In this document: piece after piece, positions 2,220-64,000 of the stretch
Layout of the letters: each line of letters begins with the position of its first letter
Numbering within the stretch: the stretch's first letter is position 1
NCBI GenBank assembly: GCA_038065455.1
Contig: JBBTQX010000004.1
Location: 5,157-69,156 of the forward strand
Reading direction: 5' to 3'
Length of the DNA: 64,000 nucleotides
Origin: Patescibacteria group bacterium
Lineage (GTDB): Bacteria > Patescibacteriota > Minisyncoccia > UBA6257 > GWB1-50-10
Translations under genes and position numbers: made by a program
Notes under the pieces: generated by a model
Told to the model about the DNA's origin: nothing
Seen by the model: the letters and a program-made list of their open reading frames with translations, nothing else
The model's database searches: none

Positions 2220-3233
2220 TTACATATCGAGCACCGGGCGGCGCTCTTTCCTTTCGGTCAGATAATTGAAGATTTCTTGGACTAAGACAGCAAGCGGAAC
2301 ACTTAAGATTATCCCCACAAAACCGGCGATTTGGGCCCCAGCCAAAAGGGAAACAACCACGATTACCGGGTGTACTCTCATACTCTTACCCATTATGATC
2401 GGAATGAGTATATGATTCTCAAATTGCTGGACAACAAAAAAGAATGCTAAAGCATACATACCCAACGCCGTGGAATCGGCGATAGCGATAACGAAGGCAA
2501 TAAGCCCAATCATTATAGGACCGATGATCGGCACCACCTCGAATATGGCGGCGAGAATACCCAAAATCAGAGCGTAGCGAACGCCAATAAACCACATTCC
2601 CAATCCCACCGCGAAACCGACGAATAGACTCAATACCAGCTGAGTGCCGAGCCAGCGGCGCATTTTTATCTTGAATCCGTCGAAAATGGATAGAATCGGC
2701 CGTTCGTAATCATCCGGGATGATAACCCGTATCATTTTTTCCGCTCCGTCTTTTTCAATACTCAAATAAAGTGTGACAAAAATCGAGGAGAAGAAAAGAA
2801 TGGCGTTTCCGAAGAGTTTAGTAATCGCGCCGGGAACGGAATTGCCCGCGCCCGAAATCAAATTCAATATCTGATCCGCTCCGATATTCAAACTTTCCAA
2901 ACTCAAGCTGAAATTGCCGAAACGAAAAACCGAAGTAACGAATTGAGTAAAATGGAAAAGGAAGCCGGCCAGTTCCTCGAAGATAACCGGCGCTATGATG
3001 TATATTCCGCCGGCAAAAACGGAAATAATGGCGAGAATCACGATGATGGAGGCGAAGACCCGACCGATTCTGGCTTTCTCGGCGAGAAAAGTGACGAATG
3101 GGTCTATTCCCATCGAAATCACAACACCCACAAGAAGAACGGTGAAAGCATCCCAGGCGAAATAAACGAGCGCGATGCCCGCCAGAAAGATAAAAATCCT
3201 CCATAAAGTCCCCCAAGCCACTTCCGTTTTCAT
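2220..3233 (-). CDS. AI-2E family transporter (PerM/YhhT-like)
   Basis: This is a polytopic membrane protein with an AI-2E-like core (RRWLGTQLVLSLF..VPIIGPIMIGLIAFVIA). The start is probably the ATG at 3231-3233 (MKTEVAWG), which overlaps the inverted repeat of the element at 3231-3361. Confidence 0.55.
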   Translation of the reverse strand: MKTEVAWGTLWRIFIFLAGIALVYFAWDAFTVLLVGVVISMGIDPFVTFLAEKARIGRVFASIIVILAIISVFAGGIYIIAPVIFEELAGFLFHFTQFVTSVFRFGNFSLSLESLNIGADQILNLISGAGNSVPGAITKLFGNAILFFSSIFVTLYLSIEKDGAEKMIRVIIPDDYERPILSIFDGFKIKMRRWLGTQLVLSLFVGFAVGLGMWFIGVRYALILGILAAIFEVVPIIGPIMIGLIAFVIAIADSTALGMYALAFFFVVQQFENHILIPIIMGKSMRVHPVIVVVSLLAGAQIAGFVGIILSVPLAVLVQEIFNYLTERKERRPVLDM

Positions 3234-3361
3234 CCCGTTAGAAACAGGATACGCCGCTTTGGCGCATCCGTTGGGAATCAAGCGACCTCCGAGATTTGAT
3301 TTTTCTCATAATTACCTTCATTTTTATATCTTTAGAATACACCGGTTTCTAACGGGATTCA
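3231..3361. mobile_element. small element bounded by inverted repeats (copy a)
   Basis: The ends are CATCCCGTTAGAAAC ... GTTTCTAACGGGAT, a 14-bp inverted repeat. Inside, next to the left arm, is the hairpin GGATACGCC..GGCGCATCC, and the rest is AT-rich. The flanking pentamers TTCAT/TTCAT form a possible direct repeat. Confidence 0.6.
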
Positions 3362-4627
3362 TACTTTCACTATATCAAGAAAACTCCTCTTCTTAAAGGG
3401 CCCGATGAGCGCCAGATTCAAGCCGTCGTTTCTTACCACTTCCCGCATAACTTTTCTTACGTCATTCGCGGTTATTCCGTTTACCTTCCGAGCCAGCTCC
3501 TGAGGCGAGGTGAGCTTCAGTCCCAGCATTTCCTGGCCGCCGTAGAAATAAGCCAATTCATCCGAGGTTTCGAGCGAGAGATAAAGATTGCCTATCAGAT
3601 GTTCTTTGGCTTTTTTGAGATCTTTTTCGCTCACCAATTCGTTCCGCAAACGGTTGAATTCTTCCAAACCGGCCCTAATAACCGTTTCGATTTTTGTATG
3701 CTCGATTCCCGCCGCCATCGTCAAAAGGCCGTGATCGGAATAAAGGTCGGCATCGGCCCGCACATAATAGGCGGCGCCGAGCTCTTCCCGAATTCTTTGA
3801 AAAAAGCGCGAGCTCATTCCCCCGCCCAGGATTTCGGCCGCGACCTGGAGGGCGATTCGCCGCTCGTCGTGGACGCCGAAAGCGCGGAACCCGAGAACCA
3901 AGTGGGTCTGGTCCGATTTTTTGAATTGAATGAGTTCCCGCGGCCTGGCCTGAATCTCTTTAACTTTGAGTTTTTTGCTTTTGGGTCCGGGCTTCAAAAC
4001 CGAAAAATATTTTTCGATTCTTTTCGCGATGTCTTTCTCGCCGAAAGCGCCCGCGACCGTCACAATCGTGGCTTGAGGCACGTAGTGTTTCGCCCGATAT
4101 TTCATGAAGTCGTTCCGGGTGATGCTCCGAATAACTTCTTTACGGCCGAGAATATCCCAACCCGCCGGCTGATTGCCGTAGACGAGATTCATAAAAAGGC
4201 TCTGAACCTTCCGAGAAGGCGTATCCTCGTACATATTGAACTCCTGGATAATGACGCCTTTTTCTTTTTCGATTTCCCGGGAATCAAATGTCGGATTCAG
4301 ATACATATCGGCCACCACGTCCAATATCTCGTTCACATTCTCTTTTTTCGCTTTTGCATAATAGCTCGTGGATTCCTGACTCGTGAAAGCATTGGATTGC
4401 GCCCCAAGCCCGTCCATCTCCGCCGCAATATCAATCGGCTTCGGCCGCTTTGCCGTACCTTTGAAGCACATATGCTCCAGAAAATGCGAGATGCCGCTTA
4501 TGTCTTTCGTTTCGTATTTCGAGCCGGCCTCCACCGACACCATTACGGTCGCCGCCAGACTGCCCGATTGGGGCGCGAGAATAATCCGCAGACCGTTTTT
4601 TAATTTAATTCTTCTGATATTTTTCAT
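3359..4627 (-). CDS. M16-family zinc peptidase (insulinase-like)
   Basis: HFLEHMCFKGT carries the inverted zinc-binding HxxEH motif. It is 422 aa. Confidence 0.85.
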   Translation of the reverse strand: MKNIRRIKLKNGLRIILAPQSGSLAATVMVSVEAGSKYETKDISGISHFLEHMCFKGTAKRPKPIDIAAEMDGLGAQSNAFTSQESTSYYAKAKKENVNEILDVVADMYLNPTFDSREIEKEKGVIIQEFNMYEDTPSRKVQSLFMNLVYGNQPAGWDILGRKEVIRSITRNDFMKYRAKHYVPQATIVTVAGAFGEKDIAKRIEKYFSVLKPGPKSKKLKVKEIQARPRELIQFKKSDQTHLVLGFRAFGVHDERRIALQVAAEILGGGMSSRFFQRIREELGAAYYVRADADLYSDHGLLTMAAGIEHTKIETVIRAGLEEFNRLRNELVSEKDLKKAKEHLIGNLYLSLETSDELAYFYGGQEMLGLKLTSPQELARKVNGITANDVRKVMREVVRNDGLNLALIGPFKKRSFLDIVKV

Positions 4628-6026
4628 ATATGTAATTTTTTAGTTCTTTGATTTTTACGCGTTCCTGTTTCATCGTATCGCGGTCCCGCACCGTCACGTC
4701 TTCAGTTTCCAGGCTTTCGAAATCCACCGTGATGCAGTAAGGCGTGCCGGCTTCGTCCTGCGCCCGATAGCGCTTGCCCACATTTCCCCTGTCGTCCCAC
4801 GCCACCGTGTACTCTTTCCTCAATTCTTCGTAGATTGTCCGTGCCAGTTTTACCAGCTCCAGCTTATTAGCCAGAAGCGGAAAAACCGCGGCTTTGTAGG
4901 GCGCTAATTTGGGATGTAATTTCAATACAATCCGTTTTTCCATTTCGTTGTTTTCTTTATTTGAATTTTGGGGCTTGTTTAGGATTTCGGATTTCGGATT
5001 TAGGATTTCTTCCGTATACGCATCCATTAGAAAGAAAAGGGTTGCGCGGTCTACGCCGCCCGAGGTCTCGATGATATAAGGCAGAAAGCGTTCCTTGGAT
5101 TCCTCGTCGAAATAGGTCAGATCCTGCTTGGAAAATTCCTGATGGCGCCGCACATCCCAATCGCCCCGATGGTGGATTCCCTCCATCTCCTTCCAGTCGC
5201 CTTCCGCGTTATACTCGATATCGAATGCCGCCTGGGCGTAGTGCGCCAACTGCTCGTGTTCCTTGAAACGGAGATTTTTCTTCGTCATTCCGAGGGACAG
5301 ATACCACTTCATCCGTTCTTCTTTCCAATATTCCATCCACTTCATCGATTCTTTTTTGTCCGGTTTCGTATAGAACTGCAATTCCATCTGCTCGAATTCA
5401 CGGGAGCGGAAAGTGAGTCCGCCGGGCGTTATCTCGTTCCGGAAGGCCTTGCCGACCTGGACGACGCCGAACGGGATTTTAACGCGGGTGGAATCCAGAA
5501 CATTTTTGAAATTCACGTGCACGCCCTGGGTGATTTCGCCGCGGAGATATGTCTTGAGCTTCTCTCCCTCTATTGAGCCGAGATAGGTCTCGACCATCAG
5601 ATTGAATTGCTTCGGTTCGGTTATTTCTCCGCCGCAATCGGGACATCCGCCAGCCGGCGGATTTTTCTCCAATTGGTCGGCGCGAAAACGATGGTGGCAT
5701 TTTTTGCACTCGACGAGCGGGTCGGAAAAAGAATCCAGATGGCCCGATGCCTCCCAAACCTTCGGATTCATTATTATGGCGGCATCCAGGCCCACGATAT
5801 TCTCGTGCTCCTGCGTCATGTTCTTCCAAAACTCGTTCTTGATATTCCGCTTCAATTCCGCCCCGAGCGGGCCGTAATCCCAAGTACCCGCGAGGCCGCC
5901 GTAGATTTCGGAGCCCGGATAAATAAAGCCGCGCCGCTTGGCCAGAGAAGTAATCTTCTCGAAAATATCCTTCTTTTCTTCCTTCTTCATATATGAACCT
6001 ATTGTAAACCGTAAACAACTCTTCAC
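4605..6026 (-). CDS. glyQS: glycyl-tRNA synthetase, class II (GlyQS type)
   Basis: YGGLAGTWDYGPLG and class II aaRS motifs are present. The protein contains an in-frame heptamer-repeat insertion that encodes EILNPKSEILNKP. Confidence 0.9.
   Translation of the reverse strand: MKSCLRFTIGSYMKKEEKKDIFEKITSLAKRRGFIYPGSEIYGGLAGTWDYGPLGAELKRNIKNEFWKNMTQEHENIVGLDAAIIMNPKVWEASGHLDSFSDPLVECKKCHHRFRADQLEKNPPAGGCPDCGGEITEPKQFNLMVETYLGSIEGEKLKTYLRGEITQGVHVNFKNVLDSTRVKIPFGVVQVGKAFRNEITPGGLTFRSREFEQMELQFYTKPDKKESMKWMEYWKEERMKWYLSLGMTKKNLRFKEHEQLAHYAQAAFDIEYNAEGDWKEMEGIHHRGDWDVRRHQEFSKQDLTYFDEESKERFLPYIIETSGGVDRATLFFLMDAYTEEILNPKSEILNKPQNSNKENNEMEKRIVLKLHPKLAPYKAAVFPLLANKLELVKLARTIYEELRKEYTVAWDDRGNVGKRYRAQDEAGTPYCITVDFESLETEDVTVRDRDTMKQERVKIKELKNYIYEKYQKN
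4974..5009. repeat. tandem heptanucleotide repeat (GGATTTC/GGATTTA, 4 units) inside the glyQS coding sequence
   Basis: The + strand reads aggatttcggatttcggatttaggattt. On the coding strand this is GAAATCC units. Confidence 0.85.
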
Positions 6027-10330: not shown

Positions 10331-11437
10331 ATGAAGATACTCGCAATCGAAACGTCCTGCGATGAAACCGCGCTCGCGCTTCTCAAAGCAAGCGGGGGCT
10401 TGCGCGCTCCGAAATTTAAAGTCATTAAGAATCTGGTCTCTTCCCAGATAGAAGTGCATCGGCCCTGGGGTGGCGTCGTGCCGAACCTCGCCAAACGAGA
10501 ACACATTAAAAATTTGCCGATTGTGTTTGAGCAAATTTTTTCAAATCCTAAATACCGATTTCATCGAGTATCCTCGACAAAGTCGGGACAAATTCAAAAT
10601 TCTAAAATCCAAATTCCAAAAATTGATCTGCTGGCCGTAACAGTGGGACCGGGACTGGAGCCGGCACTTTGGACCGGCGTCGAATTCGCAAAAGAATTGA
10701 AAAAAAATATTTTTCCGAAAGTTCCGCTAATCGGCGCAAACCATTTGGAGGGACACCTATACAGTTTTTTGCTATCGCAAAAAACTGCAAATCCTAAATC
10801 CAAAATCCTAAATCCTAAAATATTTCCCGCAATTGCGCTTATAGCAAGCGGGGGTCATACCATTCTTCTCAAGATGGAATCACTCATAAAATGGAAAAAA
10901 TTGGGTGAAACGCGGGATGACGCGGTGGGCGAGGCTTTCGATAAAGCGGCAAGAATACTCGGCCTTCCCTACCCTGGCGGACCGGAAATTCAGAAGCTCG
11001 CAGCTAACGGCAATCCCGAAGCCGTCGCCTTCCCTCGTCCGATGATTTACGACAATTCGCCGACTGGCAAATATGAATTCAGTTTCTCTGGTTTGAAAAC
11101 TTCCGTCCTTTATTATCTGCGGGATAATCCGAAAGCCGACAAAGCGAATGTAGCCGCCTCATTCCAGAAAGCTGCGGTGGACGTTCTGATATCGAAAACC
11201 GCCCGCGCCGTTCGGGAATTTAAGGCGAAATCGGTAATGCTTTCGGGCGGCGTCGCGGCCAACGCGTATCTTAGAGACAGACTGCGAGAGGCAAGCGACA
11301 AGATGGGTGTAAATTTCCTGGTGCCGCCGATGGATTTCAATACCGATAACGCCGTGATGATCGCGGCCGCGGCCTATATCCAAAATCTGCGCAAAAAGAA
11401 ATACGCCATTCGCGCCCAAGGGAATTTGAATTTATAA
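10331..11437 (+). CDS. tsaD: tRNA N6-adenosine threonylcarbamoyltransferase TsaD (Kae1/Gcp family)
   Basis: MKILAIETSCDETALAL, LIASGGHT and GVAANAYLR are all present. Two low-complexity heptamer-repeat insertions are also present. Confidence 0.9.
   Translation: MKILAIETSCDETALALLKASGGLRAPKFKVIKNLVSSQIEVHRPWGGVVPNLAKREHIKNLPIVFEQIFSNPKYRFHRVSSTKSGQIQNSKIQIPKIDLLAVTVGPGLEPALWTGVEFAKELKKNIFPKVPLIGANHLEGHLYSFLLSQKTANPKSKILNPKIFPAIALIASGGHTILLKMESLIKWKKLGETRDDAVGEAFDKAARILGLPYPGGPEIQKLAANGNPEAVAFPRPMIYDNSPTGKYEFSFSGLKTSVLYYLRDNPKADKANVAASFQKAAVDVLISKTARAVREFKAKSVMLSGGVAANAYLRDRLREASDKMGVNFLVPPMDFNTDNAVMIAAAAYIQNLRKKKYAIRAQGNLNL
10589..10623. repeat. degenerate heptamer repeat (AAATTCA/AAAATCC ...) in tsaD
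   Basis: The sequence is aaattcaaaattctaaaatccaaattccaaaaatt. It encodes QIQNSKIQIPK. Confidence 0.7.
10789..10816. repeat. heptamer repeat AAATCCT/AAATCCA, 4 units, in tsaD
   Basis: The sequence is aaatcctaaatccaaaatcctaaatcct. It encodes ANPKSKILNPK. Confidence 0.85.
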
Positions 11438-11444
11438 TTGGAAT

Positions 11445-13709
11445 ATGAACGCTGATTTTTCAAAGCCCTATGACCCGAAGATAACCGAAGAAAAAATATA
11501 CCAGCTTTGGCTTGATTCCGGCTATTTCAATCCGGACAACCTGCCTGCGCAGGCAGGCCTGCCTGTCGCAAAAATCAAAAATTCAAAAATTAAAAATTAC
11601 GTGGTATATATGCCCCTCCCGAACGTGACGGGCACGCTCCATATGGGCCACGCCTTGAACAACACCATTCAGGATATTCTCATCCGTTATCATCGGATGA
11701 AGGGATATAAAACGCTCTGGCTCCCCGGCACAGACCACGCCGGCATCGCCACGCAGTACGTGGTGGAAAAAGACCTGCGAAAACAAAATATTTCCCGTTT
11801 CGAACTCGGCCGGGAAAAATTCGTGGAGAAGGTCTGGGAATGGAAGAAAAAATATGGCGACGCGATCTTAAACCAGCTCAAAAAAATTGGCATCTCGGCC
11901 GATTGGTCCCGCACGCGCTTCACGATGGACGAAGCCTATAGCCAAGATGTTTTAAAAGTCTTCGTTCATTACTACGAGAAGGGCTGGCTTTATCGCGGAC
12001 TCCGCACCGTGAACTGGTGCCCGAAGGATGGCACAAGCCTCTCCGAGCTGGAACTGGAATACGAGGATACCGAAACCAAACTCTGGTATATCAACTATCC
12101 GCTTACGGATAGTAAATCCGAAATCCGAAATCCGAAATCCGAATTCATAACAGTGGCGACAACGAGACCCGAAACGATGCTGGGCGATACCGCGATTGCC
12201 GTGAATCCCGCCGACAAGAGATACAAGCATCTTATCGGAAAGACCGTCGTCCTTCCGATTCAAAATCGAGAGATACCGATTGTGGGCGATATCGCGATAG
12301 ACCCTAAGTTCGGCACGGGCGCGGTCAAGGTGACGCCGGCCCACGATATTCTCGATTTCGAAATCGGCCAACGGCACAAACTGGAAACGATTCAGGTAAT
12401 AGACGAACGGGCCAAAATGACGGTGATAGCCGGAAAGTATGCCGGACTAAAAGCCGTTGAAGCCCGCGAAAAAATCGTGAACGACCTCAAAGAAATGGGG
12501 CTTCTGGTAAAAGAAGAAAAATATCAAACCCGCGTCGCGAAGTGCTACCGTTGCGGCACGATTATTGAGCCTATCCCATCCAATCAATGGTTTTTGAAGA
12601 TGGATAAATTGGGAGCGATGGCGAAGCAGGCCGTGAAATCCAAAAAAGTGAGAATTCAGCCGAAAAATTTCGAGAAAACCTACTTGAATTGGCTTGAAAA
12701 CGTCCGCGACTGGTCGGTCTCCCGCCAAATTTGGTGGGGACACCGGTTGCCGGTTTGGTTTCACGAGCCGAAGTGCGTTCCCAAAAAGGGCCGCGAAAAG
12801 GATTCCGCCAAGTGCGAGGAGATGGTGGTTTCGCTCACCGAACCGGAGTGTAAATATTGCGAAGGGAAATATATCCAATCGGAAGACGTGCTTGATACCT
12901 GGTTTTCCTCCGCTCTTTGGCCATTTGCCGGGCTTTCTAAAGAAGATGCAGAAAAATATTATCCCGGAAACGTCCTCGTAACCGCCCGCGACATCATTAA
13001 TTTATGGGTCGCGCGGATGATCTTCTCCGGCTTAGAATTCAAGAAAAAGGTTCCCTTCACTGATGTCTTCATTAACGGCACCATCCTTGCCAAGGACGGC
13101 CGGCGAATGTCCAAAAGCCTCGGCACTGGCATTGACCCGCTGAATTACATCGGACTGCATGGAGCGGACGCGACACGTTTCGCTATCATCTGGCAGGCCT
13201 CCGGCCAGGATATCCGCTGGGACGAGGCGGCCGTCATGGCCGGCCGGAAATTCTGCAATAAAATCTGGAACGCATCCCGCTTTGTTATAGAACAAAGCGG
13301 AAATCCGAAATCCGAAATCCGAAATCCGAAACCTCGAACGGCAGCGGATAAAAAGATTCTTAAGAAGCTCGCGGCGGTGAAAAAACAAACCGGAAAAAAC
13401 ATAGAAAAATTCGAGTTCTCGAAAGCGCTCCACGATATTTACGATTTCTTCTGGCATGAGTTCTGCGACATTTACATCGAGGAGACAAAAAAAATTCACC
13501 CCGTTAGAAATAGCCCGCCCCAAGGCCCGGAGGGCGCGCGCCGCGCGGGCGAGATTTCTAACGGGGCAGGAGGAAATTCGGCAGAAATATTGATGTATGT
13601 ATTAAAAGAATCCCTTAAAATGCTCCATCCATTCATGCCATTCATCACGGAAGCGATCTATGGAAACATGGCCGAAAAAAATGGGCTTTTAATGGTTGAA
13701 AAATGGTAG
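11445..13709 (+). CDS. valS: valyl-tRNA synthetase (C-terminally short)
   Basis: PNVTGTLHMGHAL is the HIGH region, DGRRMSKSLG is the KMSKS motif, and LHPFMPFITE is present. The protein is 754 aa. It contains two GAAATCC repeat insertions and a 69-bp element inserted in frame. Confidence 0.9.
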   Translation: MNADFSKPYDPKITEEKIYQLWLDSGYFNPDNLPAQAGLPVAKIKNSKIKNYVVYMPLPNVTGTLHMGHALNNTIQDILIRYHRMKGYKTLWLPGTDHAGIATQYVVEKDLRKQNISRFELGREKFVEKVWEWKKKYGDAILNQLKKIGISADWSRTRFTMDEAYSQDVLKVFVHYYEKGWLYRGLRTVNWCPKDGTSLSELELEYEDTETKLWYINYPLTDSKSEIRNPKSEFITVATTRPETMLGDTAIAVNPADKRYKHLIGKTVVLPIQNREIPIVGDIAIDPKFGTGAVKVTPAHDILDFEIGQRHKLETIQVIDERAKMTVIAGKYAGLKAVEAREKIVNDLKEMGLLVKEEKYQTRVAKCYRCGTIIEPIPSNQWFLKMDKLGAMAKQAVKSKKVRIQPKNFEKTYLNWLENVRDWSVSRQIWWGHRLPVWFHEPKCVPKKGREKDSAKCEEMVVSLTEPECKYCEGKYIQSEDVLDTWFSSALWPFAGLSKEDAEKYYPGNVLVTARDIINLWVARMIFSGLEFKKKVPFTDVFINGTILAKDGRRMSKSLGTGIDPLNYIGLHGADATRFAIIWQASGQDIRWDEAAVMAGRKFCNKIWNASRFVIEQSGNPKSEIRNPKPRTAADKKILKKLAAVKKQTGKNIEKFEFSKALHDIYDFFWHEFCDIYIEETKKIHPVRNSPPQGPEGARRAGEISNGAGGNSAEILMYVLKESLKMLHPFMPFITEAIYGNMAEKNGLLMVEKW
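11541..11603. repeat. GC palindrome plus AAAAATN heptamer run in the valS N-terminal region
   Basis: The GC palindrome is cctgcctgcgcaggcaggcctgcctg. It is followed by aaaaatcaaaaattcaaaaattaaaaatt, which encodes AKIKNSKIKN. Confidence 0.6.
12114..12141. repeat. tandem heptamer AAATCCG x4 in valS
   Basis: The sequence is aaatccgaaatccgaaatccgaaatccg. It encodes KSEIRNPKSE. Confidence 0.9.
13301..13328. repeat. tandem heptamer AAATCCG x4 in valS
   Basis: The sequence is aaatccgaaatccgaaatccgaaatccg. It encodes NPKSEIRNPK. Confidence 0.9.
13498..13566. mobile_element. small element bounded by inverted repeats (copy d), inserted in frame in valS
   Basis: The ends are CCCCGTTAGAAAT ... ATTTCTAACGGGG, a 13-bp inverted repeat. 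The core is GC-rich. At 69 bp it adds 23 codons (PVRNSPPQGPEGARRAGEISNGA). Confidence 0.6.
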
Positions 13710-31106: not shown

Positions 31107-32951
31107 TTAGGCCTTCAATCCTACTTGCTTCAGATTAAAGCTTTTTATGATTTTGTAAAACTCTTCCTGTTCCAAGGTCTCTTTTTCCATGAGCGCCTTA
31201 GCGATGGTATCCAGAACGGTGCGGTGGGCCGTCACGATTTTTTTGGCGATGTTTAAGGTCTTCTCGATTATCTTATTCACCTCGGCATCTATTTCAGTAC
31301 CGACGGTTTCGGAATAATCTTTTTCAGTCGTCATCTCGCGGCCCAAAAAAATCAGTTCTTGGGTCTTGCCAAAGGTGCGCGGCCCGAGTTTTTCACTCAT
31401 GCCATATCTGGTCACCATCCGATGGGCATCGTCCGTCGCATTCTTGATATCACTCGAGGAGCCGGTCGTAATGTCTTTGAAAACCAATTGCTCCGCCACA
31501 TATCCGCCGAAGGATACGGCGAGGTCGGCCAAAAACTGCGTCTTGGTGCGGAGATGGGTTTCTTCAAGCGGCAATTTTATCGTATAACCGCCGGCCATTC
31601 CTCGGCTGATAATGGAAACCTTGTGTATCGGGTCGGCATCTTTCAAAGCCGCCGCGACAAGCGCGTGGCCGGCCTCGTGATAGGCGGTGATTTTCTTTTC
31701 GTTGTCGGAGATGACGCGGCTTCGGCGCGCGGGTCCGAGCATCACTTTCTCGATGGAACTCAAAAAATCTTCCTGGTCGACAATTTTCTTATTCTCCCGG
31801 GCGGCTTTGATGGCCGCTTCGTTTATGAGATTCGCCAAGTCCGCTCCGGCGAAGCCCGGCGTGCGCACCGCCACCACTTTCAAATCGACATTTTTCGCGA
31901 GCGGCTTTCCGATGGCGTGGATTTTCAAAATCTCTTCCCGGTCTTTGATGTCGGGACTGTCCAGAACCACGCGCCGATCGAATCGGCCGGGTCTCAAAAG
32001 CGCGGCGTCCAAAACATCCGGGCGATTTGTTGCCGCCATCACGATAACATTGGAGTTCCGTTCAAAGCCATCCATTTCAACGAGAATTTGATTCAAGGTC
32101 TGTTCGCGCTCGTCATGGCCGCCGCCCATCCCGGTGCCGCGCTCGCGTCCCACCGCATCAATCTCATCTATGAAAATAATGGAAGGCGCGGCTTTCTTGG
32201 CTGTCATAAACAAATCCCGCACGCGGCTTGCACCCACGCCCACGAACATTTCGACGAATTCCGAAGCGGAGATATGAAAAAAAGGAACATTGCTCTCGCC
32301 CGCCACCGCCCGGGCCAAAAGGGTTTTGCCCGTGCCCGGCAGACCCATCAGAAGCACGCCGCGGGGAATACGCGCGCCGATATCCAGAAATTTCTTGGAA
32401 TTTTTCAAAAAATCCACTACTTCGCGCAATTCTTCTTTGGCTTCTTTCAATCCCGCCACATCCTTGAAGGTCACCTTGTCCTTACTTCGGGAAAAGAGCT
32501 TGATGTTCATTTTGCCGAATGAAAAGGCCTGATTCGCTCCGGTCTTCGCTTGGCGGAATATCCACCAAAAAATCAAAACCATAACGATTATGGGCAGGAT
32601 AATCGGAACAAGAATACCCATCCAATATTTGAAACCACTCTCGTCTTGGACGCTCAGTTGCAGTTTTATCAAAGCTTCTTTCGTTACGCCGTAACCGGTG
32701 AGCGTTTCGATTATTCCCGTCTCGTTCTCCTTGCGCGAATGGGCGTTCGTCCCATCGTTCAATTTTATTTCCAAATCATTGCCATTCACATTCACGCTCT
32801 TCACCTCGCCTGCGATTATTTTTTGGGCCAGAGCGTCAATTGTGAGCTTCTGCGAATCCGTACCGGCCGGCGCCGAAAAAAGCGAAAAGATAAAAGCGAC
32901 GAAAAATAAAAGGATTATGGCGCCCGTGAAATTTTTGGTAAACTTTTTCAT
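31107..32951 (-). CDS. ftsH: ATP-dependent zinc metalloprotease FtsH
   Basis: The Walker A motif is GLPGTGKT. The second region of homology is present. HEAGHAL is the zinc-binding site. The N-terminus has TM segments. The ATG overlaps the inverted repeat of element copy b. Confidence 0.95.
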
Positions 32952-33064
32952 CCCGTTAGAAACAGGATGCGCTTTTTAAGCGTATCCGTATTATTAAACT
33001 TATTTATTTCTTTATTTTTCATGGAATATTCTATATTATACTTAGCAAATTTCTAACGGGATGA
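32949..33064. mobile_element. small element bounded by inverted repeats (copy b)
   Basis: The ends are CATCCCGTTAGAAAC ... ATTTCTAACGGGATG. The internal hairpin is GGATGCGC..GCGTATCC and the core is AT-rich. The left repeat arm contains the ftsH start codon. Confidence 0.6.
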
Positions 33065-34253: not shown

Positions 34254-34331
34254 CAATCCCGTTAGAAATCACGCCCGCGCGCAAGCGCGCCCCGCAGGGG
34301 CCTGCGGGGCGGGCTATTTCTAACGGGATCA
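34254..34331. mobile_element. small element bounded by inverted repeats (copy c), with a GC-rich hairpin core
   Basis: The ends are ATCCCGTTAGAAAT ... ATTTCTAACGGGAT, a 14-bp perfect inverted repeat. The core is GCCCGCCCCGCAGG-GGCC-CCTGCGGGGCGGGC. The flanks are ATCAAT and ATCAAC. Confidence 0.6.
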
Positions 34332-55196: not shown

Positions 55197-55257
55197 AAAC
55201 AAGCAAAAACCGTAAAAACAGAAAAATATTAGTAATTCATTATAATTTAGAATATTG

Positions 55258-55288
55258 CAAAGTTATACTGTCATGACATAATAACTTA
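55258..55288. promoter_or_regulatory. imperfect palindrome CAAAGTTATAcTGTCATGACAtaATAACTTaG overlapping promoter-like TATAAT/TAGAAT elements upstream of the second PaaX-like gene
   Basis: It is about 26 bp with an ATGTCATGACAT core. Its perfect twin lies downstream of the gene at 55876-55909. Confidence 0.5.
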
Positions 55289-55293
55289 GTAAA

Positions 55294-55863
55294 ATGCGAA
55301 TTAGGAGAAACTCACAACCCTATCGCCTTCTTAAATACCTTGCTATAGGCACCGGTGTTTTGACACTCTCTCTTATAGCGCCGGTAAGCGGCGCGATGCT
55401 GGTGAAAAATTTTATCCGCTATTATTTCAGGAATAAAAAGTTTCAAAAATATCGATTTCTAAATGATTTGAAAAATCTCCAAAGTAGAGAATTGGTATCG
55501 TATAAAGAGGAGGGGAGAGGAGTGGTGAAAATCACCCTTACTAAGAACGGCCGGGAGAAAATACTGCGGTACCAAATTGATGAAATAAAAATAAAAAAGC
55601 CCGCCCGCTGGGATGGGCAATGGCGGCTGATAATGTTTGATATACCGCATTACAAACGCATTGCCCGCGACGCTTTTCGGACAAAGCTGAAAAATTTGGA
55701 ATTCTATCCTATTCAGAAAAGCGTATTTATCACTCCTTATCCCTGCGAGAATGAGATAGATTTTATAGCGTCTATTTTTGATGTAAGAAAAGAGGTTCTT
55801 ATCCTTTATGTGAGCCGATTTGAAGGGGAGGAGAAATTCAAAAATCACTTCAAAATATACTAA
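55294..55863 (+). CDS. PaaX-like transcriptional regulator family protein (paralog)
   Basis: WDGQWRLIMFDIPHYKRIARDAFRTKLKNLEFYPIQKSVFITP resembles the PaaX C-terminal domain pattern. Confidence 0.5.
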   Translation: MRIRRNSQPYRLLKYLAIGTGVLTLSLIAPVSGAMLVKNFIRYYFRNKKFQKYRFLNDLKNLQSRELVSYKEEGRGVVKITLTKNGREKILRYQIDEIKIKKPARWDGQWRLIMFDIPHYKRIARDAFRTKLKNLEFYPIQKSVFITPYPCENEIDFIASIFDVRKEVLILYVSRFEGEEKFKNHFKIY

Positions 55864-55875
55864 ATATTCGCTATT

Positions 55876-55909
55876 ACAAAGTTATTATGTCATGACATAA
55901 TAACTTTGT
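55876..55909. promoter_or_regulatory. perfect 34-bp palindrome ACAAAGTTATTATGTCATGACATAATAACTTTGT
   Basis: It is read directly from the sequence and lies downstream of the PaaX-like gene. Confidence 0.5.
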
Positions 55910-56018
55910 AAAAATGTAGAAAAAAGGGAGAGGGGGAATGAAGGAGAAAGATGGTGATAGAGGAGGATGGGGAGTGGGGAGAGAGAAAGAAAAAAGGAAA
56001 AAGTGGGGGCTGTTTGAT

Positions 56019-62336: not shown

Positions 62337-62395
62337 GCAATTTTTAATTTTTGAATTTTTAAATAAATTATAATGTCTGAATTTTTAAACACTTT

Positions 62396-62740
62396 ATGAA
62401 ATATGATTTGGAAGAGAGGACGGCTAAATTTGGAGAAAGTGTCATATTTTTCATTAAGAAAATTCCTGAAAATCGGATAAACCAGCCACTAATAAACCAA
62501 GTCATAAGGTCTGCTACGAGCATTGGGGCTAATTATATGGAGGCTAACCAGGCAAGCTCTAAAAAGGATTTTAGAAATAAAATAAGAATTTCCCAAAAAG
62601 AATCTAATGAAACTAAGCATTGGATTAGAATGATGGCCGCCGCGAACCAGAACCATAAAGAAGAGTGTATGGTTTTATGGAAAGAGGCCCACGAATTAAC
62701 CTTGATTTTTGCTAAAATATCAAAAAATTGCGGTGTTTAA
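62396..62740 (+). CDS. four-helix-bundle protein (23S rRNA intervening-sequence protein family)
   Basis: RSATSIGANYMEANQASSKKDFRNKIRISQKESNETKHWIRM resembles the family pattern. It lies in an AT-rich islet. Confidence 0.55.
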   Translation: MKYDLEERTAKFGESVIFFIKKIPENRINQPLINQVIRSATSIGANYMEANQASSKKDFRNKIRISQKESNETKHWIRMMAAANQNHKEECMVLWKEAHELTLIFAKISKNCGV

Positions 62741-62803
62741 AAACTAGAATTTAGACATTATTTAAAAATTACAAAAATTACAAAATTATAATACAATAAG
62801 GAT

Positions 62804-63439
62804 ATGTCCGATACACCGCAACCATCCCAGCAATTCGTTCCGATAAAAGAGATTCGGGACGGCGTCGTTTATCTTAAAAATGGCGGGCTTCGCCAGCTCC
62901 TGATAGTGAGCGGGGTGAATTTTGAATTGAAATCCGAGGCCGAACAAAACCTGATTCTCGGCGGCTTCCAGAACTTCATCAACTCGCTCGATTTTTCCGT
63001 TCAAATCTTCGTCCATTCCCGCAAAGTGAATGTGGATAATTATCTGGCAAAAATGGACATGCGGAAAAAAGACGAGCAGAATGAGCTTTTAAAAATCCAA
63101 ATAGAGGAGTATGCGAATTTCATCCGGAGTTTCGTGGACCAGAACGCCATTATCAGCAAGAATTTTTTCATAGTGGTGCCCTACGACCCGATTGCCGCTC
63201 CGGCCGCCGCGAAAGGATTTCTCGGCCTTTTCGGCAAAAAAACTTCCGATAACGAGAAGAATGTTATGGAGAAAGAAAACTTGGAACAGCTCCGCCACCG
63301 GACGGAGCAGGTGATAGAAGGATTAAGCCAGACCGGAATCCGAGCCGCTATTTTGGAAAACGAAGAAGCAACGGAACTTTTTTATAATCTGTACAATCCC
63401 CAGCTCGTCGAGAAAAGAACTTTGGATATAGCCAAATAA
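62804..63439 (+). CDS. VirB4/TrbE-like conjugation ATPase, N-terminal segment (split gene)
   Basis: VPIKEIRDGVVYLKNGGLRQLLIVSGVNFELKSEAEQNLILGGFQNFINSLDFSVQIFVHSRKV...ELFYNLYNP resembles the N-terminal region of the Gram-positive VirB4 type (PrgJ/TcpF/ConE-like). Confidence 0.55.
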   Translation: MSDTPQPSQQFVPIKEIRDGVVYLKNGGLRQLLIVSGVNFELKSEAEQNLILGGFQNFINSLDFSVQIFVHSRKVNVDNYLAKMDMRKKDEQNELLKIQIEEYANFIRSFVDQNAIISKNFFIVVPYDPIAAPAAAKGFLGLFGKKTSDNEKNVMEKENLEQLRHRTEQVIEGLSQTGIRAAILENEEATELFYNLYNPQLVEKRTLDIAK

Positions 63440-63440
63440 A

Positions 63441-63572
63441 ATGAATCCCGTTAGAGACATAAGCCTTATGAAAAATATGATTACCAAACAATCAATGAAA
63501 TCCAATAAAGTCGAGTTAACTAATCCATCACGGATGCGCTTTTTGAGCGCATCCTGTCTCTAACGGGATGAA
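63441..63572. mobile_element. small element bounded by inverted repeats (copy e), lying between the two halves of the VirB4-like gene
   Basis: The ends are ATCCCGTTAGAGAC ... GTCTCTAACGGGAT. The hairpin GGATGCGC-tttttga-GCGCATCC sits next to the right arm. ATGAAT is directly repeated on both flanks. The right flank supplies the ATG of the downstream ORF. Confidence 0.6.
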
Positions 63573-64000
63573 TATTAAAATTCCTAAAGCGTACAAGCCG
63601 GGCGCCGAAGATATTCCGAACGTAATCGCTCCAGCGGGGCTGGAGATCGCGAGCAATTATATTAAGATAGGCGATTATTATTCCAAAACTTTTTTCGTTT
63701 TTACCTATCCCAGATATATTTCGACCGGCTGGTTCTCGCCGCTCGTAAATCTTCCGGAAATGATGGATATTTCCATATTCATCCACCCGATGGATACCGC
63801 GCTCGCGCTCCGAAACCTCCGAAAGAAAGTGGCTCAAGTTGAAGCTGAAATAAGCGAAAAAGAGGAAAAAGGTATTGTCCGCGACCCCGTACTCGAAACG
63901 GCCTATCAGGACATAGAATCGCTCCGGGATTCTCTTCAACAAGCACGGGAAAAACTCTTTGAGGTGGGTGTTTATATCACGATTTACGGGAAAAACCTGG
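63568..64000 (+). CDS. VirB4/TrbE-like conjugation ATPase, continuing segment (partial at window end)
   Basis: It begins MNIKIPKAYKPG. IKIGDYYSKTFFVFTYPRYISTGWFSPLVNLPEMMDISIFIHPMDTALALRNL resembles the VirB4 N-domain core. Confidence 0.55.
   Translation, partial: MNIKIPKAYKPGAEDIPNVIAPAGLEIASNYIKIGDYYSKTFFVFTYPRYISTGWFSPLVNLPEMMDISIFIHPMDTALALRNLRKKVAQVEAEISEKEEKGIVRDPVLETAYQDIESLRDSLQQAREKLFEVGVYITIYGKNL

What the first reader, a model, noticed from the sequence alone, without database searches (positions are those of the whole stretch)
63441..63572. Element copy sits between two halves of a VirB4-like ATPase gene and supplies the downstream start codon
The ORF at 62804-63439 and the ORF starting at 63568 match consecutive parts of the N-terminal region of Gram-positive-type VirB4 ATPases. 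Between them lie the stop of the first ORF (TAA at 63437), a 126-bp element bounded by inverted repeats, and an ATG embedded in the right repeat arm (CGGGATG). ATGAAT is directly repeated on both flanks. Removing the element together with one ATGAAT copy leaves TAAAATG, a normal stop-start junction. So the element seems to have inserted exactly at the junction of an already split gene, duplicating the start codon.
Basis: partly seen in the sequence, partly recalled or inferred. Interest (0 to 1): 0.65.

Follow-up and report, generated by a model that had tools for sequence, protein, structure and literature searches.

The report
Mobile element at split VirB4 junction
A 123-base mobile DNA element has landed exactly on the start codon of the second half of a naturally two-part secretion-ATPase gene in an ultra-small groundwater bacterium; it rebuilds that start codon and carries a small reading frame that may pass ribosomes on to the gene.

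Summary
ORF1 (62804-63439) and ORF2 (63568 onward) are colinear parts of a VirB4/CD1110-type ATPase. Joined, they score 410 bits against a cutoff of 325, in one stretch across the junction. The split is ancestral: the 120 best homologues of ORF1 are 171-225 aa. Three relatives (82-93% identical) have an element-free junction, TAA-N1-4-ATGGAY.

The insert is a miniature inverted-repeat element (MITE), 63446-63568, with 14-nt terminal repeats TCCCGTTAGAGACA and a 4-bp target duplication TGAA. One nested insertion indicates that the A of the downstream ATG belongs to the element and the TG to the duplication.

I collected 63-65 further copies from Paceibacteria genomes and metagenomes. All have the hairpin end abutting an ATG, and 29 of 63 sit at tight stop-start gene junctions. 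One copy elsewhere is 121/121 identical, so the family moved recently.

In 25 of 43 copies, including this one (63441-63563), a roughly 40-codon frame runs from the displaced ATG to a TAA in the right repeat, 4 nt before the rebuilt ATG. The other two frames are open in 0 of 43; shuffles give 5.5. I infer, without experimental support, a termination-reinitiation relay. No transposase partner was found.

The parts
62804..63439 (+). ORF1, 211 aa: stand-alone N-terminal (TraC-like, PF26593) part of a split VirB4-type ATPase. Stop TAA at 63437-63439.
63441..63443 (+). Displaced original start codon of ORF2 (target-derived ATG), 1 nt after the ORF1 stop. It now opens the element's relay ORF.
   Evidence: (relatives: TAA-N1-4-ATG)
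63442..63445 (.). Left copy of the 4-bp target-site duplication, TGAA.
63446..63568 (+). The MITE proper, 123 nt (T...A). It is oriented with its hairpin end towards ORF2.
63446..63459 (+). Left terminal inverted repeat, TCCCGTTAGAGACA.
   Evidence: position -1 is T in 61 of 63 copies
63532..63554 (+). Subterminal hairpin, GGATGCGC(TT)-TTT-(GA)GCGCATCC. It is conserved in the family, with compensatory changes in the upper stem.
63555..63568 (+). Right terminal inverted repeat, TGTCTCTAACGGGA. It contains the TAA (63561-63563) that ends the relay ORF. Its last base, A (63568), is the first base of the ORF2 start codon.
   Evidence: first base after CGGG is A in 63 of 63
63441..63563 (+). Relay ORF, 40 codons plus TAA: MNPVRDISLMKNMITKQSMKSNKVELTNPSRMRFLSASCL. 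It starts at the displaced ATG and ends 4 nt before the rebuilt ATG.
63569..63572 (.). Right copy of the target-site duplication, TGAA.
63568..64000 (+). ORF2 (runs off the window; 583 aa in the same-species contig L002): the rest of VirB4, including the P-loop ATPase (P-loop_TraG, AAA_10, DUF87). It is intact and 97.3% identical to the element-free relative L009.
3233..3357 (-). Second long-type copy. It sits at the ATGA stop/start overlap between an M16-type peptidase ORF (3359-4627, minus) and an AI-2E transporter gene (start at 3233, minus). TSD TGAA. The relay frame is interrupted after 12 codons.
32951..33061 (-). Third long-type copy, abutting the start codon of FtsH (31107-32951, minus). 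Its left flank is TTCA-T, not a direct repeat.
13499..13566 (+). Short GC-rich member of the same terminal-repeat family, lying in frame inside the ValRS ORF.
34257..34328 (+). Short GC-rich member of the same terminal-repeat family, intergenic, with flanks TCAA/TCAA.

Best explanation
Shown: a 123-nt non-autonomous transposable element (MITE) inserted into the TGAA of the ATGAAT that began the second gene of an ancestrally two-gene VirB4 ATPase, in a Paceibacteria-type (CPR/Patescibacteria) genome. The element has 14-nt terminal inverted repeats and one subterminal hairpin. Insertion duplicated TGAA. The old ATG, still 1 nt after the ORF1 stop, stays on the left. A new ATG is assembled on the right from the element's terminal A plus the duplicated TG. 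The family moved recently, because a 100% identical copy sits at another gene. Nearly all of its copies lie on start codons, and about half lie at tight stop-start operon junctions. Inferred, not shown: expression of ORF2 survives because the element is translationally transparent. Ribosomes finishing ORF1 re-initiate at the displaced ATG (63441). They translate the element's 40-codon frame, which melts the 15-bp terminal stem that otherwise pairs the AU of the ORF2 AUG. They terminate at the TAA built into the right terminal repeat (63561-63563) and re-initiate 4 nt downstream at the rebuilt ATG (63568). This is the same stop-N4-start geometry that relatives have natively. My confidence is about 0.95 for the insertion history and about 0.5 for the relay mechanism.
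For: Insertion history. ORF1 and ORF2 are colinear with full-length VirB4. The split is conserved in the 120 best homologues. Empty junctions occur in L009, L010 and L011, and the ORF2 start is at the same residue. Multi-copy family: 5 copies in the window, and 65 unique long-type copies elsewhere in Paceibacteria/Minisyncoccia MAGs and groundwater/soil metagenomes. TSD: the 4-mers are identical in 36 of 63 copies and co-vary. The left terminal base is T in 61/63 and the right terminal base is A in 63/63, while the next target base varies. A nested insertion supports this. A 121/121 identical copy lies at another locus, L127. Several assemblies break inside the element. Relay. In 25 of 43 copies with an in-register left ATG, the frame is stop-free through the element and ends at the repeat's TAA (-4) or at an ATGA overlap. 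The other two frames are open in 0/43 and 0/43. Interior shuffles give 5.5 +/- 2.2 open frames, maximum 13 of 2000. Mean in-frame stops are 1.05, against 3.8 and 3.0 in the other frames. Among 121-nt copies, 10 of 14 clusters (80% interior identity) are open, although median interior identity is only 47% against 29% random. Entropy does not differ by codon position, so what is kept is translation rather than the peptide. 40 of 65 lengths are 1 mod 3. All three frames at the right end either stop at or next to the ATG (TAA, ATGA) or fuse in frame (sequence). The host is SD-poor: 7 of 48 long ORFs have an SD core, and there is none before ORF2 in the window or in relatives. The terminal stem sequesters the region up to the AU of the AUG. 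29 of 63 copies sit at stop-start junctions of 10 nt or less. ORF2 is intact and 97.3% identical to the element-free orthologue. All four same-species contigs that read through the junction (L002, L005, L007, L008), from four assemblies, carry the identical insertion.
Against: No expression data exist. 18 of 43 copies with a left ATG have a premature stop in the relay frame yet precede intact long genes, for example the window copy at 3233-3357. So the relay cannot be the only route to expression. Copies without a left ATG are open about as often (4 of 7 among 121-nt copies), so openness may partly be inherited from an ORF-bearing master copy. Without the two commonest lengths the 1-mod-3 excess is weak (17 of 42). 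Copies are not phylogenetically independent, and shuffles assume saturation. This insertion is recent, so an intact ORF2 does not prove that it is expressed. That the A of the ATG belongs to the element rests on a single nested case. No transposase partner was found.
Confidence: 0.6

Rival explanations
1. Same insertion history, but ORF2 is expressed without any relay. Either an internal promoter in the element (a -35-like GAGACA in the left repeat plus a -10-like TATGAT) gives a new ORF2 transcript, or ribosomes initiate SD-independently at the rebuilt AUG, as they must at most genes of this SD-poor organism. The stop-free frame would then be an inherited relic, for example of a parental transposase reading frame.
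For: A promoter-like site, GAGACA-16-TATGAT, lies at 63454-63481 with 9 of 12 matches. 41 of 48 long ORFs lack an SD core, so SD-less initiation is the norm here. 18 of 43 copies have broken relay frames but intact downstream genes. Copies lacking a left ATG are open about as often.
Against: Promoter-like hits in the region are no more frequent than in shuffles (5 against 3.2 +/- 1.7). Only 18 of 65 copies have a TAnnnT box at the right spacing. The sequence before the rebuilt ATG (hairpin + CUCUAACGGG) is GC-rich and structured, unlike the A/T-rich leaders of other genes. It does not explain why frame 0 alone is depleted of stops at 47% median interior identity.
Confidence: 0.25
2. The insertion is polar and harmful. 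ORF2 (the ATPase) is no longer made in proper amounts, and the type IV secretion-like locus of this strain is starting to decay. The element is merely too recent for damage to show.
For: The element moved recently: an identical copy lies elsewhere. The same operon carries a second insertion, the four-helix-bundle gene at 62341-62783, which relatives lack. The terminal stem pairs the AU of the ORF2 AUG.
Against: The insertion is identical in every same-species contig that reads through the junction, from four assemblies (ERZ1292619, ERZ1292628, ERZ1292618, ERZ1292630). The other contigs break inside the element, and no empty allele was seen. ORF2 and all neighbouring genes are intact. Family members sit in front of genes such as FtsH (generally essential, from general knowledge) and many ORFs of 300-1200 codons, so insertions of this kind are generally tolerated.
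Confidence: 0.12
3. The element itself split a formerly continuous VirB4 gene.
For: The element lies exactly between the two halves.
Against: The ORF1 stop codon lies outside the element and its duplication. Removing the element leaves TAA-A-ATG. Element-free relatives are split at the same residue. The 120 best homologues of ORF1 are all short stand-alone proteins.
Confidence: 0.01
4. The inverted repeat and hairpin form a native regulatory structure of this junction (an attenuator or terminator), not a mobile element.
For: The RNA fold is strong, z = -5.7.
Against: The structure is absent from the junction in three relatives. The same ends occur at more than 60 unrelated genes. There is no T-run after the hairpin and no Rfam match.
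Confidence: 0.01

Closest known systems
Bacterial MITEs co-transcribed with neighbouring genes (Correia/NEMIS of Neisseria, ERIC, RUP/BOX, MITEAba12). This comparison rests on my own knowledge and on the titles returned.
   Same: About 100-150 nt. Terminal inverted repeats. Short target duplication. Many dispersed copies. No transposase. Folds into a long stem-loop in RNA. Sits next to genes.
   Different: The target is TGAA (4 bp), whereas Correia elements use TA (from memory). Every copy abuts an ATG that it helps to build. The orientation relative to the gene is fixed. It carries a roughly 40-codon stop-free frame phased with the displaced start codon. It is found in CPR/Paceibacteria, for which my four literature searches found no MITE description.
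Rickettsia palindromic elements (RPE): small palindromic repeats inserted in frame in protein-coding genes (own knowledge).
   Same: A mobile repeat that is compatible with coding sequence in a reduced genome. The short member at 13499-13566, in frame inside ValRS, behaves like this.
   Different: The copy studied here is not read as part of the host protein. It has its own frame, with a stop 4 nt before the host start codon.
Native translational coupling at stop-start junctions (ATGA, TAA-N-ATG) in operons: termination-reinitiation.
   Same: The geometry on both sides of the element (TAA-A-ATG and TAA-CGGG-ATG) is the same as at the native junctions of relatives (TAA-N1-4-ATG).
   Different: Here one of the two junctions is carried by a transposable element and is re-created at every insertion. 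Function was not tested.
Two-gene VirB4 of Gram-positive conjugative plasmids (TrsD/TraD family protein plus the VirB4 ATPase, NCBIfam NF041427).
   Same: The N-terminal VirB4 domain is a separate protein of about 200 aa, encoded directly upstream of the ATPase. ORF1 aligns to TrsD positions 20-141 of 201.
   Different: The score (33 bits) is far below the family cutoff (200). The Patescibacteria proteins form their own large TraC-like (PF26593) group.
Mobile inserts skipped by ribosomes (phage T4 gene 60 hop; 'byp' elements of yeast mitochondria) (own knowledge).
   Same: A mobile insert in a translated region, flanked by identical codons (ATG AAT ... ATG AAT).
   Different: There is no stop directly after the take-off codon, and the insert is 2-3 times longer. 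An open frame with stop-restart is the simpler reading. Bypassing was not tested.

Membership tests
MITE (non-autonomous DNA transposon) | Small size and no transposase gene | tested here: met
   123 nt. Its only ORF is 40 codons. A profile search of these peptides finds only three proteins of 40-46 aa.
MITE (non-autonomous DNA transposon) | Terminal inverted repeats | tested here: met
   A perfect 13-nt repeat (14 nt with the terminal T/A) at 63446-63459 and 63555-63568. It is conserved in 65 copies.
MITE (non-autonomous DNA transposon) | Target-site duplication, with an empty site in relatives | tested here: met
   TGAA lies on both sides. The two 4-mers are identical in 36 of 63 copies, with co-variation (TGGA, TGAG). 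There is one nested insertion. Junctions are empty in L009, L010 and L011.
MITE (non-autonomous DNA transposon) | Multiple dispersed copies and signs of recent mobility | tested here: met
   5 copies in 64 kb. 65 unique copies in other genomes and metagenomes. A 121/121 identical copy lies at a different gene (L127).
MITE (non-autonomous DNA transposon) | An autonomous insertion sequence with the same ends | tested here: inconclusive
   No repeat pair 0.4-4 kb apart in 1.1 Mb of fetched DNA. No long protein starts with MNPVRD. No viral hits. Whole genomes could not be searched.
VirB4 / CD1110-type type IV secretion ATPase (the flanking ORFs) | Full-length colinear match above the curated cutoff | tested here: met
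   ORF1+ORF2 concatenated scores 410 bits against a cutoff of 325 on NF045971. The aligned stretch, 160-765, spans the junction. It also aligns to TIGR00929 over 6-749. The C-terminal half matches PDB 4ag5 VirB4 at 1.8e-41.
VirB4 / CD1110-type type IV secretion ATPase (the flanking ORFs) | A single polypeptide | tested here: not met
   There are two ORFs, here and in all 120 best homologues and in 3 sequenced relatives. This is a split variant of the family.
TrsD/TraD family (NF041427) | Score above the family cutoff | tested here: not met
   33 bits against a cutoff of 200. It is an analogous arrangement, not a member.
Correia/NEMIS-type MITE | TA target duplication and 26-bp terminal repeats (from memory) | tested here: not met
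   The TSD is TGAA and the repeats are 14 nt with unrelated sequence.
IS200/IS605-derived palindrome-associated elements | No terminal inverted repeats, no target duplication, and hairpins at both ends (from memory) | tested here: not met
   Terminal repeats and a co-varying duplication are present. A hairpin occurs at one end only.
RPE-like in-frame coding insertion | The insert is translated as part of the host protein | tested here: not met
   This copy's frame ends at TAA 63561-63563, and the host ORF restarts at 63568.
Termination-reinitiation (translational coupling) | Stop and next start within a few nucleotides | tested here: met
   TAA-A-ATG at 63437-63443 and TAA-CGGG-ATG at 63561-63570.
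Termination-reinitiation (translational coupling) | Downstream translation depends on upstream translation | not testable with these tools
   This needs reporter assays or ribosome profiling.

The most novel reading that the evidence does not exclude
This copy belongs to an undescribed, currently mobile MITE family of Paceibacteria (CPR) that is built to live on start codons. It inserts into TGAA. It assembles a fresh ATG from its own last base plus the duplicated TG. It carries a roughly 40-codon frame, phased with the displaced start codon, that ends at a TAA inside the right terminal repeat 4 nt before the new ATG. Ribosomes would therefore be relayed through the transposon to the host gene. 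That would be a transposon strategy for genomes with almost no intergenic space and little Shine-Dalgarno use: a translationally transparent mobile element.
Probability: 0.45. Interest if true: 0.75.

Novelty: new variant of a known kind. Interest (0 to 1): 0.6.

Why it matters
The single copy is a clean, dated example of a transposon landing on the coupling point of a two-part ATPase without breaking either gene.

The family behind it matters more. It shows how a mobile element can persist in ultra-small, gene-dense CPR genomes, namely by occupying start codons and operon junctions and rebuilding what it displaces.

If the relay works, it is a natural portable stop-restart cassette. It would be a new way for transposons to be neutral to their hosts, and it would put hidden 40-codon upstream frames in front of many CPR genes.

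There is also a practical point. These repeats break short-read assemblies: several contigs here end about 23 nt inside the element. They could also mislead start-codon annotation in CPR genomes.

Tried and rejected
- **Known RNA family.** Rfam found only three tRNAs in the window at gathering thresholds, and nothing at E <= 1 over 63380-63640.
- **Intrinsic terminator or native attenuator.** There is no T-run after the hairpin, and the terminator scan did not flag the hairpin. Relatives lack the structure.
- **Element-borne promoter.** There is one 9/12 match, using the left repeat as -35. Only 18 of 65 copies have a suitably placed TAnnnT. I kept this as a rival, not as the main explanation.
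- **Conserved leader peptide from the ATG in the hairpin** (MRFLSASCL). The loop length varies (7 or 8 nt), so the frame is not kept. Dropped.
- **Functional micro-protein.** The interior is poorly conserved and shows no codon-position signal. The profile search found only 3 tiny proteins.
- **Autonomous partner.** I looked for unpaired ends, for repeat pairs 0.4-4 kb apart in 1.1 Mb of fetched loci, for long proteins starting MNPVRD, and for hits in viral contigs. All were negative.
- **IS200/IS605-like mechanism** (suggested by the hairpin and the fixed orientation). Rejected because the flanking 4-mers are true co-varying duplications.
- **Assignment to an IS family from the CC(CG) ends and 4-5-bp duplication** (IS1380-like or IS982-like, from memory). 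Not testable here, so not claimed.
- **Divergent-gene explanation for the five copies flanked TTCA...TGAA.** The opposite-side ORFs are short. This remains unexplained.
- **Literature.** Four full-text searches found no description of MITEs in Patescibacteria/CPR or of MITEs linked to translational coupling. The library is incomplete, so prior description cannot be excluded.
Full report
**1. What is in the sequence**

ORF1 runs 62804-63439 (211 aa) and ends with TAA at 63437-63439. One A follows, then ATGAAT at 63441-63446. Next comes CCCGTTAGAGACA at 63447-63459, then 95 nt, then TGTCTCTAACGGG at 63555-63567. ATGAAT at 63568-63573 then opens ORF2, which runs off the window.

The two 13-mers are perfect reverse complements. 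With up to 2 mismatches the 13-mer occurs 8 times in the window against 0.92 expected, and no shuffle of 100 reaches 8. A search for the 9-nt core finds ten half-sites that form five elements:
- Three long, AT-rich copies: 3234-3356, 32952-33060 and 63447-63567.
- Two short, GC-rich copies: 13500-13565 and 34258-34327.

As RNA, 63425-63590 folds at -43 kcal/mol (z = -5.7). The fold has a 15-bp terminal stem and a 10-bp hairpin (63532-63554) directly inside the right arm. Rfam has no match.

**2. The two ORFs are consecutive parts of one VirB4**

Separately, the ORFs hit NCBIfam VirB4 models at successive positions:

| Model | ORF1 | ORF2 |
|---|---|---|
| CD1110 family (752 positions) | 2-116 | 188-320 |
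| Mbov_0397 family (894 positions) | 102-233 | 293-420 |

ORF1 also matches TIGR00929 positions 6-176 and the TrsD/TraD model.

I completed ORF2 from the same-species contig L002. It is 583 aa with P-loop_TraG, AAA_10 and DUF87 domains. I then joined it to ORF1. The 794-aa product has these properties:
- It scores 410 bits on the CD1110-family VirB4 model, above the cutoff of 325.
- Its aligned stretch (residues 160-765) runs straight through the junction at 211/212.
- It aligns to TIGR00929 over residues 6-749 in one piece.
- Its C-terminal half matches the VirB4 structure 4ag5 at 1.8e-41.

The surrounding genes are TrbL_3 (VirB6-like), PrgI (VirB3-like) and, in relatives, a T4SS pilin.

**3. 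The split is old and the insertion is new**

A search of the 5.8-billion-protein set with ORF1 gives 3144 hits. The best 120 are all 171-225 aa, carry PF26593 (TraC-like), and come from Patescibacteria such as Jorgensenbacteria, Paceibacterota and Minisyncoccia. The two-gene arrangement is therefore ancestral in this clade. It parallels the TrsD/TraD-type proteins of Gram-positive plasmids.

Contigs encoding the closest relatives have no element at the junction:

| Locus | ORF1 identity | Junction |
|---|---|---|
| L010 | 93% | GCCAAATAA-ACCG-ATGGATATAAAAATTCCC |
| L009 | 91% | TAA-ATCT-ATGGATATA |
| L011 | 82% | CAATAA-A-ATGGACATA |

ORF2 begins at the same residue in all of them: MDIKIPKAYKPG in relatives against MNIKIPKAYKPG here. 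ORF2 is 583 aa in each, and 97.3% identical between the window's species and L009.

Eight same-species contigs were retrieved. Four read through the junction (L002, L005, L007, L008) and carry the identical insertion. The other four end about 23 nt inside the element (position 70 of the 221-nt reference that starts at 63400), as expected at a repeat.

**4. The family, and what it says about the ends**

I scanned two collections for the hairpin-side end of the element:
- The species-representative genomes, with ATCCTGTYTCTAACGGG.
- The metagenome contigs, with GCATCCTGTCTCTAACGGG.

After discarding chance hits in unrelated phyla, 65 unique long-type copies remained (109-139 nt, mode 121). They come from Paceibacteria-type MAGs and from groundwater and soil metagenomes. 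Sixty-three of them are followed directly by ATG; those 63 are the set used for the flank and junction counts below. Oriented with the hairpin on the right, every copy reads:

[A TGAA] T-CCCGTTAGAGACA ... variable AT-rich interior ... ACGGATGCGC-loop-GCGCATCC-TGTCTCTAACGGG-A [TGAA N]

Position statistics:
- The base left of CCCG is T in 61 of 63 copies.
- The base right of CGGG is A in 63 of 63.
- The base after the right TGAA varies (A 29, T 15, G 10, C 9).
- The base before the left TGAA is A in 56 of 63.
- The two flanking 4-mers are identical in 36 of 63: TGAA x33, TGGA x2, TGAG x1. They co-vary, so this is a true target duplication.

One nested insertion fixes the boundaries. In L121 the interior of one element, GGTGAATATATG (compare L066), became GGTGAA-T[CCCG...CGGG]A-TGAATATATG. 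This gives three conclusions:
- The duplication is the 4-bp TGAA.
- The element ends are T and A, making 14-nt terminal repeats.
- The A of the right-hand ATG is supplied by the element.

In the window copy the left ATG (63441) is therefore the original start codon. The ORF2 start codon (63568) is element A plus duplicated TG. That the A comes from the element rests on this one case.

The hairpin is kept in all copies, with compensatory changes in the upper stem, for example GGATGTGC/GCACATCC, GGATGCC/GGCATCC and GGTTGTC/GACAAC. A copy in L127, a contig from the same aquifer, is 121/121 identical to the window copy but sits in front of a different gene of 1207 codons. A copy in L138 is 115/121 identical. 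The family has therefore moved recently.

**5. Where the copies sit**

- The right-hand ATG opens an ORF of more than 100 codons in most copies. In the window these include FtsH and an AI-2E transporter.
- In 29 of 63 copies, an upstream same-strand ORF of at least 80 codons ends within 10 nt of, or overlaps (ATGA), the left ATG. The VirB4 junction is thus a typical site for this family, not an exception.
- The window copy at 3233-3357 sits on an ATGA overlap in the same way.
- In the window, TGAA occurs 775 times and ATGAA 204 times on both strands, and only 14 of 48 long ORFs start with ATGAA. The concentration on start codons is therefore far beyond target availability. I infer that it reflects loss of intragenic insertions, possibly combined with a preference for A-TGAA.

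**6. A frame through the element**

In the window copy the displaced ATG opens a 40-codon frame at 63441-63563. It encodes MNPVRDISLMKNMITKQSMKSNKVELTNPSRMRFLSASCL. It ends at the TAA inside the right terminal repeat, 4 nt before the ORF2 ATG.

Family-wide figures:
- 43 copies have a left ATG in register. In 25 of them the frame runs stop-free through the element and ends at that TAA or at an ATGA overlap.
- The other two frames are open in 0 of 43 each.
- Shuffling the interiors gives 5.5 +/- 2.2 open frames (maximum 13 in 2000 shuffles).
- Mean in-frame stops are 1.05, against 3.8 and 3.0 in the other frames.
- 40 of 65 lengths are 1 mod 3, which puts the TAA in frame. Of the left-ATG copies with such lengths, 22 of 26 are open.
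- The 21 copies of 121 nt fall into 14 clusters at 80% interior identity. Ten clusters are open, although median interior identity is 47% (random 29%).
- Variability is equal at the three codon positions.

So the peptide is not conserved, but the absence of stops is. At the right end, the three frames either stop at TAA, stop at ATGA, or fuse in frame to the gene. A ribosome that gets through therefore always arrives at the host start codon.

**7. Mechanism: what is shown and what is inferred**

Shown:
- The insertion history.
- The rebuilt start codon.
- The stop-N1-start and stop-N4-start geometry on both sides of the element.
- The family-wide open frame.
- An intact ORF2.

Inferred:
1. Ribosomes ending ORF1 restart at 63441.
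2. They read the 40 codons, which opens the terminal stem that pairs the AU of the ORF2 AUG.
3. They stop at 63561-63563.
4. They restart at 63568.

This would reproduce the coupling that relatives have natively (TAA-N1-4-ATG with no Shine-Dalgarno). It also fits an organism in which only 7 of 48 long ORFs have an SD core. Many of its genes have a TATAAT-like box 5-12 nt before the ATG, which suggests short or absent leaders.

Evidence against the relay being required:
- 18 of 43 copies with a left ATG have an early stop yet precede intact genes.
- Copies without a left ATG are open about as often.
- The copies are related to each other, so the shuffle control overstates significance.

I put the relay at about 0.5. 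Rivals are SD-independent initiation or an element promoter (0.25), and a recent polar, mildly harmful insertion (0.12).

**8. Comparison with known systems**

By its defining features the element is a MITE: it is small, has terminal repeats and a target duplication, is multi-copy, and has no transposase. All of these were tested and met. An autonomous partner was sought and not found.

It is not a Correia-type element, because the duplication and repeats differ. It is not an IS200/IS605-type element, because a true duplication and terminal repeats are present. The short copy inside ValRS (13499-13566) behaves like a Rickettsia palindromic element, because it is read in frame. The copy studied here does not.

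I know of no MITE family that does all three of the following: builds a start codon from its own end, always lies on start codons, and carries a phased stop-free frame ending in its terminal repeat. Four literature searches found none, and none for CPR bacteria. The library is incomplete.

**9. Verdict**

- The single copy is a new member of an undescribed MITE family.
- The family's start-codon-rebuilding and putative relay design make it a new variant of a known kind.
- Interest is 0.6.

Noticed in passing
window 62341-62783: A 114-aa four-helix-bundle / 23S rRNA-intervening-sequence-protein gene (62396-62740) lies between the PrgI-like gene and ORF1. It is flanked by a 48-nt imperfect inverted repeat (62341-62388 / 62736-62783). 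Relatives L009 and L011 have only about 24 nt there, and L010 has a different AT-rich 130-nt filler. This is therefore a second, independent insertion in the same operon.
   Followed up: partly
window 13499-13566: A short GC-rich member of the same terminal-repeat family lies in frame inside the ValRS gene (11445-13709). It adds roughly IHPVRNSPPQGPEGARRAGEISNG in a loop of the anticodon-binding domain, relative to solved ValRS structures (1gax, 4xkz).
   Followed up: partly
window 34257-34328: A second short GC-rich member of the family is intergenic, with flanks TCAA/TCAA. This agrees with a 4-bp duplication of the form T..A.
   Followed up: no
window 32951-33061, and L027, L029, L113, L143: Five long-type copies have the left flank TTCA-T and the right flank A-TGAA, which is inverted rather than direct. 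A single 4-bp-duplication insertion cannot produce this. The outward ORFs on the far side are short. Unexplained.
   Followed up: partly
L127 1184-1304 and L138 2510-2630: Contigs from the same aquifer carry copies that are 121/121 and 115/121 identical to the window copy, at other genes (one of 1207 codons). The family has therefore moved recently.
   Followed up: partly
L121 3300-3525: One family member is nested inside another. This case fixes the element boundaries (T...A) and the 4-bp TGAA duplication.
   Followed up: yes
window, whole: Only 7 of 48 long ORFs have a Shine-Dalgarno core. Many have a TATAAT-like box 5-12 nt before the ATG, which suggests very short or absent mRNA leaders in this organism.
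   Followed up: partly
window 4978-5010, 10590-10818, 12114-12157, 13287-13344: Arrays of the heptamer GAAATCC (or its complement) occur at four places. Two lie inside the ValRS ORF, where they encode repeated SEIRNPK-like peptides.
   Followed up: no
window 55248-55292 and 55874-55918: A pair of 45-nt, internally palindromic repeats (about 84-90% alike) brackets the 190-aa ORF at 55293-55863.
   Followed up: no
L001, L003, L004, L006: These independent short-read contigs stop about 23 nt inside the element (about 30 nt after the ORF1 stop codon). The repeat family fragments assemblies of these genomes.
   Followed up: partly
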